A stretch of DNA of 64,000 nucleotides from Thermodesulfovibrionales bacterium (GCA_035686305.1 DASRZP010000052.1:9723-73722), one strand, 5' to 3'; positions 7,059 through 26,339 are shown, counted from the stretch's first letter. Notes: a model not told the origin generated them from the sequence alone. Translations and numbers: made by a program.

Positions 7059-10000
7059 ATGACCCAATACCGTGCTAAGCTCATAAGGAATATCTATGCA
7101 TATATCCTATCGGCTCTCGTTCTTTCTCCATTTATCTTATCCGCCTCTTCCGCTCAGGATTTCACTGCAAAGACCATCGGTGACTACGGCAATGTGACAG
7201 TTATGGAGGTTATGGGGAATTACGATTCCGACAACCCCGATGGCTCGACAAACCATAATCCGCGGGCAGCAATTGCAAAGGAATTCTTCCATACCCACCA
7301 GGACGAATACGACTTCCTGGTCATTTTCTCTAACTTCGATTTCAAGATGCCTGAAGCTGAGGCAAAGGCATTCTACTTGGGCGTCAAGAATGACACACAT
7401 GGAATCGGCGCACAGCTCTTCGATAATACCGCCTTTTTCGGCAGCAAAGGCAAACTCCAGGGGATGATAGACATGGGGAATATCTCGAACCTGGTGACGG
7501 ACCCCCGTGACTCGAAGTATGAGAACACTCTTTCAACCCTTTCCCACGAAGTCCTACACCGTTGGGCGGCCCGCGTAAAATTCAGAGACACCGCAGGCGC
7601 TGTCAGCACATCACTCCTGGGGAAAAATGGGGAGCACTGGAACTTTCTTCTGAACACCTACGCCTCGCTCCTTTACGGTAACCAGTGGAAGGACAATGGA
7701 GACGGCACCTTCACGTCAATTGCAGTGACGAAGTATTACAGTCCCCTTGATCTTTACCTCATGGGTTTTATCGACAAGTCGCAGGTTCCCCCCATGTTCC
7801 TCATCGACAACTCCGCAATCGATCCTGCGAGAATGCCCGAAGTCGGCGCCACGATCAGCGGAAGACTCCGATATATCACGATCGATGACATCATAGCTGC
7901 CGAGGGAGATAGAATCCCTTCTTCTTTAGAATCTCAAAAGACGTTCAAGACAGCCTTTATCTTTATAACATCACCCGGCACTTTCACTGGTGACGAGGTA
8001 TACGGAATCGAAAATATACGGAACGGTTGGATAACTCGATTTTCTGTGCTCACTGACGGCAAGGGCATAATGGAGGTTGCTTCGACCCTCCAGAACAGCA
8101 TCCCGACAAATCCCGGGATAATCCCGCCAACGGTAACTCCTCGTCCCCTGCCCCTGAACATTGAAGACGGCGTGAAATGGCTGATGACGAATCAGAAGAC
8201 CGATGGCAGTTGGATGGAGCTTGCCCAGACTGTTAAGAGGGATACGGCTGAAGCGGTCTTTGCTATAAAGGACTTTGCTATCGCGCAGCAGAACTATTCC
8301 CTGGGGTTTCAATGGCTCAGCCGCGATGAGTCAGAAAACGTTGATTATCTCTCCCGGAAGTTAGAGACCTTAGTAAATAGAGGACAAGACGCTTCTGCAC
8401 TCATGAATGAAATCCTCTCCCGCCAAAATGCCGATGGCGGGTGGGGTAGCAACAGAGATTATCTAAGTAATCCGCTGGATACAGCTCTTGCCTTAAAGGC
8501 GATTGCGCTTGCCGGTTATTCGGACACGACCGTCGTATCAAAGGCTATAACATATGTAAGAGCCGTTCAAAATGGAGACGGCGGATGGGGAGGAGAGGAC
8601 GGAGTAAGCACGGTGGAGGCAACGGCTGATGTCCTCACTGCATTCAGCAAGTACCGTCAAAATAATCAAATAGAGGACCTGATAACAAAGGGTGTTACCT
8701 TGCTTACACAGAGGCAAAACCCAGACGGCGGTTTCGGAAACAGCCCAAGCACGGTCTATGACACCGCACTGGCAGTGATGGCGCTTAAAGGACTTAATGC
8801 ATCTCAAGACAGCCTCAATAACGGCATTACGTATCTTCTCAATAGCCAGTCGGGCGATGGAAGCTGGAACAAGAGCCCTTACCAGACCGCCCTTGCGATC
8901 GATGTTGCCGGGAAGGTGCTGGTGGATCCGGATCTGTCCATAAAGACTGCAGACATAACTTTCGTTCCCGCCACGATAACCAGCCTCCCGGCGAATATCG
9001 TGGTGAACGCCGTCGTGCACAATCTCGGCATGACCGATATCCCTCAGGCAACGGTCGCTCTTTACGACGGCGCAGTAGCGGATGCAAACAAGATAGGGGT
9101 GCAAACCGCCGCATTCCCCGCGCAGTCTTCTGTGACGGTCACATTTCCGTTGACGATAAGCGACGGTAACCAGCATACATTTCACGTAGTCACAGACCCG
9201 GGCAATATTATCAAGGAATGGAACAAGGCCAACAATGTGGCCATGGTTATTCTGAACCTCCAGGGAACATATGACTTCGAGGTCCTGTCCTCGGGTATCT
9301 CGCTGTCCCAAAACCCCGCCGACATATTCAGCGATGTAACGATAAGCGAGAAGATAAGGAACAAGGGTACTTTGAACGCCTACAACGTCCAGGTCAAATA
9401 CTACATCGACGATCCCCAGAGCCCCATCGATATCGGGACGACAACCATCGACATCCCGGCGGGCGCGTCAGTGACGAATCAAGTAACATGGATGGCGAAC
9501 AAAGCAGGGGACAACATGCCGTTGACGATCCTCGTGGATCCCCTGAACACCTTCACCGAGGTATCGAAAGAGAATAACAAGGCTGTCATTCCCTTGACCG
9601 TCAGGAGTTCGATGGACCCAAACCTCACAGTATCCTATAAGGACATAACGATTACCCCTAATCCTGCGAATGACGGCGGAAACGCGCACATCTCCGCCAT
9701 CGTTGCCAATAACGGCTTCTCCTCTGCCTCGAACATCAAGGTGAATTTTTACAACGGCACCCCCGGGGTCGACGGCGTGCTCATCGGGAGCCAGACCATC
9801 CCGGCCCTGAAGGCGGGGGACAGCGCCACGGTTGTCACCGACTGGACGAGCATAAGCGGAGCAGGGACGAAGATCGTTTACGTTCAGGTGGACCTTGATA
9901 ACGTAATAAAGGAGATCAAGAAGGACGACAACAGCGCCTTTACGACGCTTAAGGTCCTCAGCCTTCCCGACCTTACGATCACATCGGGTTCCATCGTCTT

Positions 10001-26339: not shown

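What the first reader, a model, noticed from the sequence alone, without database searches (positions are those of the whole stretch)
7059..26339. A single 19.3-kb ORF encoding a 6,426-aa mosaic protein
The frame is open for 19,281 nt, with recognisable protein motifs from end to end. The order is:
- signal peptide, HExxH domain, terpenoid-cyclase-like toroid;
- 4 CARDB domains, a FlgD-Ig module, a propeller;
- FlgD-Ig and Ig-type modules, then 6 FN3 modules alternating with Ig-type modules;
- a discoidin domain, a second propeller, another CARDB domain, then three ~110-aa repeats of unknown type;
- a long Ig-like array, a GH-like barrel, choice-of-anchor-D-like, CarboxypepD_reg-like and InlB-B-repeat-like modules;
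- a Gly/Ser-rich terminal module.

From length alone, roughly forty ~100-aa beta-sandwich modules are expected. I saw no recognisable cell-wall, T9SS, PEP-CTERM or autotransporter sorting signal at the C-terminus. How a protein this size would cross the outer membrane is therefore unexplained.
Basis: seen in the sequence. Interest (0 to 1): 0.75.

Follow-up and report, generated by a model that had tools for sequence, protein, structure and literature searches.

The report
Conserved giant secreted multidomain protein
The 19.3-kb reading frame is a real, intact gene for a 6,426-residue exported protein that belongs to a widespread but unstudied family of similarly built giant bacterial proteins; its last module is borrowed from pilus-tip proteins, and how it leaves the cell is still not known.

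Summary

It is not a one-off mosaic. The N-terminal HExxH domain has no Pfam model and no structural neighbour in PDB. It defines a large family: 3,952 cluster representatives, of which 63 of the best 150 are 4,000-7,895 aa. All 63 giants are collinear with this protein over 43-90% of its length at 31-48% identity.

The core (aa 1 to about 5,000) is conserved; only the C-terminal ~1,000-1,500 aa is swapped. Here that cassette holds a GH158/GH2-like barrel, choice-of-anchor D, CarboxypepD_reg and a final beta-helix, DUF7305. The same cassette exists as a separate ~1,950-aa secreted protein in a Thermodesulfovibrio MAG.

DUF7305 is otherwise the apical module of ~415-aa PilX-type minor pilins. 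The giant copy lacks both the pilin helix and the terminal strand those proteins use to enter a pilus tip, and its adjacency to pilin genes is not conserved.

Best reading: a Sec-exported surface fibre with a putative zinc-enzyme head and an adhesive or glycan-directed tail. The outer-membrane route remains inferred.

The parts
7059..26339 (+). Whole gene: 6,426-aa giant protein (stop codon included)
   Evidence: collinear orthologues
7059..7154 (+). Sec-type signal peptide (aa 1-32; basic n-region, hydrophobic core, 'SSA|QD' cleavage site)
   Evidence: Read directly from the sequence. The same 'A-x-A | (Q/D)(D/E)FTA' junction is present in orthologues. No prediction program was run.
7155..8093 (+). 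Uncharacterised HExxH (zincin-like) domain, aa 33-345. Conserved residues: H163, E164, H167, H193, W194, D231, Y233, R285, P287
   Evidence: No Pfam hit even at E<=1 and no PDB sequence hit. AF2 model pLDDT 95, pTM 0.91. No Foldseek neighbour in PDB or BFVD. Conservation measured over 259 domains. Family size.
8157..8885 (+). Alpha/alpha toroid (SQHop_cyclase_C / prenyltransferase / TED-like), aa 367-609; no CxEQ thioester motif
   Evidence: (PF13243, E 7.8e-20); motif checked in the sequence
8928..10283 (+). CARDB array, aa 624 to about 1075
   Evidence: CARDB E 1.7e-51, 4 stretches
10377..10553 (+). FlgD Ig-like module 1, aa 1107-1165
10857..11828 (+). First beta-propeller (weak DPPIV_N / TolB / Atxe2-N matches), aa about 1267-1590
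   Evidence: all below curated cut-offs
12318..15149 (+). FlgD_ig modules 2-4 (aa 1754-1816, 2453-2493, 2646-2697) and a poorly annotated Ig-like stretch (aa about 1817-2450). The stretch is conserved in orthologues.
15309..17948 (+). Alternating Ig-type (Big_13, Glucodextran_B, Big_3_3) and FN3-type modules, aa about 2751-3630
   Evidence: FN3 signature motifs seen
17964..18305 (+). F5/8 type C (discoidin) domain, aa 3636-3749
   Evidence: PF00754 E 3.1e-9; PF22633 E 1.9e-9
19224..20009 (+). Second beta-propeller (PD40/TolB type), aa about 4056-4317
   Evidence: PD40 E 1.5e-18; TolB E 1.6e-19
20232..21578 (+). CARDB (aa 4392-4498) plus three divergent CARDB-like repeats (aa 4500-4840)
21555..23684 (+). 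Ig-like array (Big_7, OmpL47-type, Glucodextran_B x4-5, Big_13 x5), aa 4833-5542. The variable C-terminal cassette starts at about aa 4900.
   Evidence: cassette boundary
23676..24758 (+). GH clan-A-like (beta/alpha)8 barrel, aa about 5540-5900. Best solved relative is GH158. It has 'GND' where GH158 has 'GNE', and an 'LEYG' nucleophile motif.
   Evidence: Conserved at 66-67% identity in L010 and P0244; the GND and LEYG motifs were read in the L010 alignment only.
24789..25079 (+). Choice-of-anchor D / HYDIN-type Ig domain, aa 5911-6007
   Evidence: (NF012200, E 1.9e-19)
25122..25586 (+). CarboxypepD_reg (aa 6022-6098) and divergent InlB B-repeat (Flg_new_2, aa 6105-6176)
25572..26336 (+). C-terminal beta-helix, DUF7305 (aa about 6172-6426), homologous to the apical module of PilX_N-type minor pilins. 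It ends 8 aa after 'VHYDE' and has no terminal 'SWxE' strand.
476..6989 (+). Three upstream same-strand genes, possibly co-transcribed: a transglutaminase-core + Ig protein (476/503-4012), a 180-aa lipoprotein-like protein (4022-4564), and an 812-aa protein with no family match (4551-6989)
   Evidence: Spacings are 9 nt, a 14-nt overlap, and 69 nt. No + strand terminator-like site lies between them. They are not conserved next to orthologues.
26523..28136 (-). Three type IV pilin genes, convergent with the giant gene (context; a link is not established)
39384..44404 (+). pilM-pilN-pilO-pilP-pilQ (secretin) operon, 13 kb downstream (context; candidate outer-membrane conduit by inference only)

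Best explanation
This is a genuine, intact gene for a Sec-exported giant extracellular or cell-surface protein. It is one member of a large, undescribed family of collinear 4,000-7,900-aa proteins, whose named relatives come from Nitrospirota/Thermodesulfovibrionales and Desulfobacterota MAGs.

Shown:
- a conserved signal-peptide-like N-terminus;
- a conserved N-terminal HExxH domain with an invariant candidate metal site;
- a conserved ~5,000-aa scaffold: toroid, about 40 beta-sandwich modules, two propellers and a discoidin domain;
- a swappable C-terminal cassette.

In this lineage the cassette carries a GH158/GH2-like barrel and ends in the beta-helix (DUF7305) that otherwise forms the exposed apical part of PilX/PilK-type pilus-tip minor pilins.

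Inferred mechanism: the protein forms a long (order 0.1-0.2 um) beaded fibre. The fibre presents a zinc-dependent hydrolase-like head and a glycan-directed, adhesive tail to an external polymeric target, such as other cells, matrix or particles.

The DUF7305 helix probably serves as a distal binding module rather than as a pilus anchor. It lacks both elements (pilin helix, terminal strand) that tie its relatives into a filament.

Passage of the outer membrane is most plausibly through a type IV filament-class secretin (T2SS or T4P, for example the PilQ encoded 13 kb away). That step is inference only.
For: The gene is real:
- The ORF is confirmed, has no internal repeats, and matches the public gene call.
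- Orthologues in L001 and L005 are collinear, though their assemblies carry frameshifts.

Family:
- 3,952 representatives at E<=1e-3 and 841 at E<=1e-30. Of the top 150, 63 are at least 4,000 aa with the domain directly after a signal peptide.
- All 63 are collinear with the window protein over 43-90% of its length at 31-48% identity.

HExxH domain:
- H163, E164, H167, H193-W194, D231-x-Y233 and R285-x-P287 are conserved in at least 93% of 259 domains.
- The structure model is confident.

C-terminal cassette:
- L010 (Thermodesulfovibrio sp. MAG) encodes the window's aa 4901-6426 at 59-67% identity as a protein of its own with its own signal peptide.
- Tails differ among relatives: 34 of 63 share a different helical tail, and only P0245 and P0260 share DUF7305.

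DUF7305:
- It is 47-53% identical over the full domain to ~415-aa PilX_N proteins.
- Those proteins sit at the end of GspH-pilin-pilin-PilX operons or next to pilin genes.
- The model is a beta-helix with pLDDT 96. Weak Foldseek matches are to DUF3494 beta-helices, the pilin ComZ and tapirins.

GH barrel: GH2_C and GH72 score above their Pfam cut-offs, and GH158 is the best PDB match at E 6e-7.

Precedent: giant genes next to T2SS/T4P-like loci, proposed to act in adhesion and cell-wall digestion (bioRxiv 10.1101/2023.11.21.568195).
Against: - There are no expression or localisation data.
- The HExxH domain has no detectable structural relative among solved zincins (best Foldseek E 3.2 in PDB, 0.45 in BFVD). 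Peptidase activity is therefore only a motif-level inference.
- The GH-like barrel has Asp where clan GH-A enzymes have the acid/base Glu ('GND' instead of 'GNE'; also in L010). It may bind glycans rather than cleave them.
- No secretion-system gene is in an operon with the giant gene.
- Pilin adjacency is not conserved in L004, L005, L010 or L019.
- The upstream genes are not conserved next to orthologues.
- The source is a short-read metagenome assembly (MEGAHIT-style contig name). Strain-level chimerism cannot be formally excluded.
Confidence: 0.55

Rival explanations
1. Pilus-tip cargo. The giant protein is a PilY1/PilC-like non-pilin tip subunit. Its C-terminal DUF7305 module docks on the minor-pilin initiation complex, so the protein is carried through PilQ and displayed at the tip of a type IV pilus.
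For: - DUF7305 is otherwise almost confined to PilX_N or Tad-type minor-pilin-like proteins, which sit in or next to pilin operons.
- Like PilY1, the giant protein has a Sec signal peptide rather than a prepilin leader.
- Three pilin genes lie 184 nt downstream, and pilMNOPQ is 13 kb away.
- Large adhesins such as PilY1 and MshQ are held at pilus tips by their last ~10 residues (bioRxiv 10.64898/2026.02.14.705861).
Against: - The giant-type DUF7305 copies (25 sequences) stop 2-10 residues after 'VHYDE'. They lack the 'phi-x-phi-S-W-(K/N/Q)-E' tail present in most of the 74 longer-tailed PilX-type copies. They also lack PilX_N.
- No PilY1/PilC propeller domain is detected at the C-terminus.
- The pilin genes are convergent, look like major pilins, and are absent beside the relatives in L004, L005, L010 and L019.
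- Most family members carry other tails.
Confidence: 0.15
2. Artefact or pseudogene. The long frame is an assembly chimera of repeated Ig-domain genes, or a decaying gene that is not expressed as one protein.
For: - The source is a short-read metagenome contig.
- Orthologous loci L001 and L005 are split by frameshifts, and L010 has only the C-terminal third.
Against: - There are no internal DNA repeats that could mislead an assembler.
- The frame is uninterrupted with uniform codon-position GC.
- Dozens of independent 5,000-7,900-aa relatives are collinear, some in single HSPs of about 5,000 aa.
Confidence: 0.04
3. Type I-secreted RTX/LapA-type or T9SS/exosortase-sorted giant adhesin whose signal was simply missed.
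For: - The overall look is that of a giant adhesin: Ig, FN3 and CARDB arrays plus a choice-of-anchor D domain.
- One relative (P0318) has a sub-threshold IPTL-CTERM-like tail (E 0.02).
Against: - A cleavable-looking N-terminal signal peptide is conserved, unlike T1SS substrates.
- No RTX, T1SS, T9SS CTD, PEP-CTERM, LPXTG or autotransporter model hits the C-terminus at E<=0.1. The CHU_C and Bac_Flav_CTERM hits are internal, below cut-off, and overlap FlgD_ig modules.
- No T1SS or T9SS genes are in the 64-kb window.
Confidence: 0.06
4. Periplasmic or envelope-resident protease-trap or defence protein in the manner of bacterial alpha-2-macroglobulins (beta-sandwich array plus a TED-like toroid).
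For: A weak TED_complement match (E 1e-5) and a toroid embedded among beta-sandwich modules. This reading would remove the need to cross the outer membrane.
Against: - There is no CxEQ thioester motif in aa 360-615.
- No A2M macroglobulin-domain families were detected.
- The toroid matches terpenoid-cyclase repeats far better (E 7.8e-20).
- Discoidin, GH-like and pilus-tip-type modules point outward.
Confidence: 0.05

Closest known systems
Giant multidomain proteins of Omnitrophota and other bacteria (West-Roberts et al., bioRxiv 10.1101/2023.11.21.568195; 'huge proteins' survey, PMC11573180)
   Same: - A single very long ORF with N-terminal signal and peptidase-type domains.
- Long arrays of adhesion-type beta-sandwich domains with carbohydrate-active modules.
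- Type IV filament (T2SS/T4P, pilin) genes nearby.
- A proposed role in attachment and polymer or cell-wall attack.
   Different: - A different family: the N-terminal domain here is an unmodelled HExxH domain, not C39 or S8.
- Smaller size (6.4k aa, against up to more than 30k aa).
- The secretion-system genes are not in a conserved position beside the gene.
- Named relatives come from Nitrospirota/Desulfobacterota-type MAGs.
PilX/PilK/GspK/CpaL-type tip minor pilins with an apical insert (here PilX_N + DUF7305, about 415 aa); structural precedent ComZ of Thermus thermophilus (PMC6561018)
   Same: - The last ~255 aa are 47-53% identical to the beta-helix of these proteins.
- A beta-solenoid module sitting on a pilus-tip pilin is known from ComZ (weak Foldseek match, E 0.06).
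   Different: - No pilin N-terminal helix and no terminal complementing strand.
- Not in a minor-pilin operon.
- About 6,170 aa of other domains precede the module.
PilY1/PilC and MshQ large non-pilin tip adhesins (PMC7541494; bioRxiv 10.64898/2026.02.14.705861)
   Same: A large Sec-exported protein with a variable N-terminal adhesive part. The tip-related part lies at the extreme C-terminus.
   Different: - No PilY1 propeller domain.
- The gene does not follow pilVWX.
- The C-terminal peptide is not comparable.
- The protein is five times larger.
Glycoside hydrolase family 158 / GH2 / GH72 clan GH-A barrels
   Same: aa about 5540-5900 aligns with the GH158 barrel, including the 'LMWA(I/L)GN(D/E)' and '(E)(Y/F)G' strands. 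It scores above the Pfam cut-offs for GH2_C and GH72.
   Different: The acid/base Glu is replaced by Asp, also in L010. The barrel is embedded in a giant scaffold. Its activity is untested.

Membership tests
Collinear giant HExxH-headed protein family (undescribed; defined here) | Signal peptide followed directly by the HExxH domain with conserved H-E-x-x-H ... H-W ... D-x-Y ... R-x-P | tested here: met
Collinear giant HExxH-headed protein family (undescribed; defined here) | Collinear ~5,000-aa scaffold: toroid, CARDB, FlgD_ig, propeller, Ig/FN3, discoidin, propeller, CARDB | tested here: met
   63 of 63 giants are collinear over 43-90% of the query. L001 is collinear through aa 4227.
Zincin metallopeptidases | HExxH motif on a helix, plus a conserved third ligand | tested here: inconclusive
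   HExxH is conserved in 94-97% of domains and lies at the end of helix 122-134 of the model.
Zincin metallopeptidases | Detectable fold or sequence similarity to a known peptidase family | tested here: not met
   No Pfam hit at E<=1, no PDB sequence hit, Foldseek best E 3.2 in PDB and 0.45 in BFVD.
PilX/PilK/GspK-type tip minor pilin | N-terminal pilin-like hydrophobic helix (PilX_N, PF14341) | tested here: not met
   homology starts after the pilin part. The N-terminus of the giant protein is a Sec signal.
PilX/PilK/GspK-type tip minor pilin | Apical DUF7305 beta-helix | tested here: met
PilX/PilK/GspK-type tip minor pilin | Extreme C-terminal beta-strand that completes the pilin sheet ('..SW(K/N/Q)E') | tested here: not met
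   the giant-type proteins end 2-10 aa after VHYDE. The 74 PilX-type copies carry 17-33 further residues, most ending in the motif.
PilX/PilK/GspK-type tip minor pilin | Encoded in a fimU/pilV/pilW/pilX-type operon | tested here: not met
   the neighbouring pilins are convergent, and the adjacency is not conserved in relatives.
PilY1/PilC-type tip adhesin | C-terminal PilY1/PilC beta-propeller domain | tested here: not met
   no such Pfam family in the last 750 aa
PilY1/PilC-type tip adhesin | Last ~10 residues strand-complement a PilK-type pilin in trans | not testable with these tools
   This needs complex modelling with the genome's minor pilins, which are not in the window.
T9SS cargo | C-terminal T9SS sorting domain (type A or B) | tested here: not met
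   only internal, sub-threshold CHU_C/TIGR04131 hits that overlap FlgD_ig modules
Exosortase / PEP-CTERM-type cargo | C-terminal motif + TM helix + basic tail | tested here: not met
   the protein ends '...VHYDESLGDIGR', with no hydrophobic tail and no NCBIfam hit
Autotransporter / two-partner secretion (T5SS) | C-terminal beta-barrel or N-terminal TPS domain | tested here: not met
   no such families detected
T1SS RTX/LapA-type adhesin | No N-terminal signal peptide; RTX repeats and a C-terminal T1SS signal; adjacent ABC/MFP/TolC genes | tested here: not met
   Signal peptide present. No RTX hits. No T1SS genes in the window.
GH clan A (GH158/GH2/GH72) glycosidase | (beta/alpha)8 barrel match above threshold | tested here: met
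   GH2_C 32.2 bits against cut-off 21; GH72 29.8 against 25.9; GH158, E 6.4e-7
GH clan A (GH158/GH2/GH72) glycosidase | Asn-Glu acid/base on strand 4 and Glu nucleophile on strand 7 | tested here: inconclusive
   alignment: 'GND' faces 'GNE', while 'LEYG' faces 'TEFG'. The Asp is also present in L010.
Bacterial alpha-2-macroglobulin | Thioester CxEQ in the TED, plus MG domains | tested here: not met
   No CxEQ in aa 360-615. No A2M families beyond a weak TED hit.

The most novel reading that the evidence does not exclude
The HExxH-headed giants could be a previously unrecognised, widespread class of extracellular 'enzyme-on-a-fibre' machines of anaerobic bacteria.
- They would carry a new metallohydrolase fold at one end and exchangeable target-recognition cassettes at the other.
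- In this lineage the cassette has captured the apical beta-helix of a pilus-tip pilin.
- The protein would then recognise the same ligand as the cell's type IV pili, or use a type IV filament secretin for export without being a pilus subunit.
Probability: 0.15. Interest if true: 0.7.

Novelty: new variant of a known kind. Interest (0 to 1): 0.42.

Why it matters
Giant bacterial proteins are usually written off as 'large repetitive adhesins'. Three points make this one worth a second look.

- A ~5,000-aa architecture is conserved in order across dozens of divergent lineages. That argues for a specific, selected function rather than a loose string of sticky domains.
- The family is headed by a confidently modelled domain with an invariant HExxH...H/D site and no Pfam model or solved structural relative. 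It is a concrete target for finding a new hydrolase family.
- The C-terminal cassettes are exchangeable and include a module taken from pilus-tip pilins. This gives a testable handle on how such proteins choose targets or exit routes.

For genome annotation, the result shows that the split or fragmented copies seen in error-prone assemblies (L001, L005) correspond to a single gene.

Tried and rejected
The first 5,000 aa timed out.
- Homologue search with the unannotated middle (aa 1850-2500) returned nothing, although collinear orthologues exist.
- Sequence searches of PDB gave nothing for the HExxH domain, the 812-aa neighbour and the transglutaminase-like neighbour. For DUF7305 they gave only chance-level beta-helix matches.
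- Foldseek of the HExxH model against PDB and BFVD found no significant neighbour.
- Conserved synteny with pilin genes, or with the three upstream genes, was tested and rejected.
- The majority C-terminal tail of the family ('LDELLKIWEKKWYL') has no Pfam or NCBIfam match.
- The literature search for DUF7305 found no papers.
- Organism naming failed.
- From memory, the 812-aa neighbour's 'W-D-x-x-x-T-H' start after its signal peptide recalls zinc phospholipase C or S1/P1 nuclease. No tool supported this, so it remains only a lead.
- There are no Rfam or tRNA features in the window.
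Full report
**1. Observation**

The window holds an ORF at 7059..26339 (+) with an ATG start and 6,426 codons. A GGAG lies about 10 nt upstream of the start. A weak terminator-like hairpin lies 77 nt after the stop.

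The window is part of ENA ERZ27256600 contig k141_1697967 (93,479 bp). The public gene call there also gives a 6,426-aa product.

No direct DNA repeat of 30 bp or more lies inside the ORF. Self-blastn finds a single 55-bp, 78% HSP. GC at the three codon positions is steady along the frame. An assembly artefact caused by repeats is therefore unlikely, and a 6,426-codon open frame cannot be chance (inference).

**2. Domain map**

- toroid (aa 367-609);
- CARDB array;
- FlgD_ig modules;
- a weak first propeller;
- Ig/FN3 arrays;
- discoidin (3636-3749);
- PD40 propeller (about 4056-4317);
- a long Ig array;
- a GH2_C/GH72-like barrel;
- choice-of-anchor D;
- CarboxypepD_reg;
- Flg_new_2.

The final 'Gly/Ser-rich module' is DUF7305 (PF23981, E 1.5e-25). 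No T9SS, PEP-CTERM, LPXTG, autotransporter or RTX model matches the C-terminus.

The N-terminus reads as a Sec signal peptide with an 'SSA|QD' cleavage site. The junction 'A-x-A | (Q/D)(D/E)FTA..GDYGNVTVMEV' recurs in relatives.

**3. The N-terminal HExxH domain**

aa 33-345 has no Pfam hit even at E<=1, no NCBIfam hit and no PDB sequence hit.

With 59 homologues the AlphaFold2 model is confident (pLDDT 95, pTM 0.91). Foldseek nevertheless finds nothing significant in PDB (best E 3.2) or BFVD (best E 0.45). The top, non-significant rows are M1 aminopeptidase and SprT-type zincins.

Across 259 domains, these residues are conserved in at least 93%: H163, E164, H167, H193-W194, D231-x-Y233 and R285-x-P287. 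A metal-dependent hydrolase is the natural reading, but it rests on the motif alone.

**4. A large family of collinear giants**

An exhaustive phmmer search of 1.84 billion cluster representatives with this domain finds 3,952 proteins at E<=1e-3, 2,356 at E<=1e-10 and 841 at E<=1e-30.

Of the best 150, 63 are 4,000-7,895 aa and carry the domain right after the signal peptide. Chained blastp shows all 63 to be collinear with the window protein over 43-90% of its length at 31-48% identity. Some align in one HSP, for example P0238 aa 17-5195 against window aa 14-5163.

- Locus L001 (a 1.47-Mb contig) has the orthologue split into 797 + 4,704 aa by one frameshift at the position equivalent to aa 783.
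- L005 has it shredded by many frameshifts.
- Shorter proteins (600-1,000 aa) with HExxH + toroid + CARDB, or HExxH + Ig/FN3, also exist, for example in a Geobacter sp. MAG.

Named relatives come from Thermodesulfovibrionales/Nitrospirota, Geobacter, Desulfuromonadales and Desulfobulbaceae MAGs. The window's own organism could not be named.

So the first ~5,000 aa are not a private mosaic. They are a conserved architecture.

**5. The variable C-terminal cassette**

Alignments to most relatives stop at about aa 4,930-5,030 or about aa 5,490. Clustering the last 250 aa of the 63 giants gives:
- 34 with an unannotated tail ending 'LDELLKIWEKKWYL';
- 4 with an FN3-type end;
- 3 with a Calx-beta-associated tail;
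- one with a sub-threshold IPTL-CTERM-like signal;
- only P0245 and P0260 with DUF7305, like the window.

In a Thermodesulfovibrio sp. MAG (L010), window aa 4901-6426 is encoded at 59-67% identity as a separate ~1,950-aa protein with its own signal peptide. Another ORF of at least 2,835 aa follows it.

The GH-like barrel (aa about 5540-5900) occurs only in the window, L010, L018 and P0244 among the sequences in hand. Its best solved relative is GH158 (E 6.4e-7). The alignment puts 'MWAIGND' opposite 'MWALGNE' and 'ILEYG' opposite 'VTEFG'. The nucleophile is therefore kept, but the acid/base Glu is Asp, also in L010.

**6. What DUF7305 says about export and anchoring**

Complete homologues of the last 247 aa are mostly 400-430-aa proteins; those with a second precomputed Pfam domain carry PilX_N (PF14341), or a few Tad/Tad_C. 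Sources name them PilX or PulG. The best are 47-53% identical over the whole query.

In L006 such a gene closes a GspH / N_methyl / N_methyl / PilX_N+DUF7305 operon. In seven of the short-type DUF7305 loci fetched, genes with a class III leader lie close by, in most within about 2 kb.

The AF2 model is a beta-helix (pLDDT 96). Weak Foldseek matches are to DUF3494 ice-binding beta-helices (E about 2e-3), the tip pilin ComZ (E 0.06) and tapirins (E 0.15).

Ellison et al. (bioRxiv 10.64898/2026.02.14.705861) propose how such proteins are locked into the tip complex. PilK/GspK/CpaL-type tip pilins are held by an extreme C-terminal beta-strand that completes their pilin sheet. PilY1 and MshQ supply that strand in trans.

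I therefore compared the tails:
- 74 copies, mostly PilX-type, carry 17-33 residues after 'VHYDE', most ending in 'phi-x-phi-S-W-(K/N/Q)-E'.
- All 25 giant-type copies (window, P0245, P0260 and contig-end fragments) stop 2-10 residues after it ('...VHYDESLGDIGR').

The giant protein also lacks the pilin helix. It keeps only the apical module, not the parts that would tie it into a filament.

The three pilin genes immediately downstream (26523-28136, minus strand) and the pilMNOPQ operon at 39384-44404 are suggestive. But the adjacency is not conserved in L004, L005, L010 or L019.

**7. Mechanism**

Shown:
- Sec-type N-terminus;
- conserved HExxH head;
- conserved scaffold;
- exchangeable tail that here contains a glycosidase-like barrel and a pilus-tip-type beta-helix.

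Inferred:
- An exported, fibre-like protein (about 40 beta-sandwich modules, order 0.1-0.2 um) presents a hydrolase-like head and a glycan-directed, adhesive tail to an external polymer or another cell. This is in line with what has been proposed for other giant bacterial proteins.
- DUF7305 acts as a distal binding module.
- Outer-membrane passage uses a type IV filament-class secretin. No evidence in the window ties the gene to a particular system.

**8. Neighbours**

Three same-strand genes precede the giant gene with spacings of 9 nt, a 14-nt overlap and 69 nt. No + strand terminator-like site lies between them.
- A transglutaminase-core + Ig protein.
- A 180-aa lipoprotein-like protein.
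- An 812-aa protein with no family or PDB match.

They are not found next to the orthologues examined. L001 does have a different Transglut_core giant upstream.

**9. Verdict**

This is a real member of an undescribed but widespread giant-protein family. It is a variant of the known kind 'giant secreted multidomain adhesin/enzyme'.

It has two features worth following up: the unmodelled HExxH head and the captured pilus-tip beta-helix. Interest is moderate (0.42).

Noticed in passing
window 39384-44404 (+): A complete pilM-pilN-pilO-pilP-pilQ type IVa pilus assembly and secretin operon. It is followed by a 212-aa ORF with no family (44447-45085) and a 473-aa Big_1 protein (45108-46529).
   Followed up: partly
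window 26523-28136 (-): Three tandem type IV pilin genes. Two (27011-27517 and 27612-28136) are close paralogues with almost identical N-terminal halves. The third (26523-27002) has a weak ComP_DUS match.
   Followed up: partly
window 4551-6989 (+): An 812-aa secreted-looking protein with no Pfam, NCBIfam or PDB match. Its 'PWDNEKTHKD' start after the hydrophobic leader recalls (from memory only) zinc phospholipase C or S1/P1 nuclease N-termini.
   Followed up: partly
window 476-4012 (+): A 1,178-aa (public,169-aa) protein with a transglutaminase core, two Glucodextran_B Ig modules and a PKD domain. It heads the same-strand gene row. L001 carries a different 2,308-aa Transglut_core protein upstream of its orthologue.
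   Followed up: partly
window 28578-28895 (+): A small GIY-YIG nuclease-domain ORF sits alone between the pilin genes and a radical SAM gene (29020-29991, minus strand).
   Followed up: no
window 56411-60504 (+): A PilZ-receiver hybrid response regulator (56411-57100) and a GAF-GGDEF diguanylate cyclase (58480-60504) flank a periplasmic binding protein gene, upstream of Liv-type ABC permease genes.
   Followed up: no
L010 12239-20743 (+): In the Thermodesulfovibrio sp. MAG, the stand-alone cassette protein is followed by another ORF of at least 2,835 aa with a signal peptide that runs off the locus. Large secreted proteins appear to cluster there.
   Followed up: partly
P0227-P0364 (relatives), last ~400 aa: 34 of 63 giant relatives share an unannotated C-terminal module ending in a helical 'LDELLKIWEKKWYL'-type tail. 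It has no Pfam or NCBIfam match and is the commonest tail in the family.
   Followed up: partly
L001 10001-22394; L005 1-10921: Orthologous giant genes are called as 2 and at least 8 separate genes because of frameshifts in those assemblies. Such fragments inflate the count of 'hypothetical' Ig-domain proteins in databases.
   Followed up: yes
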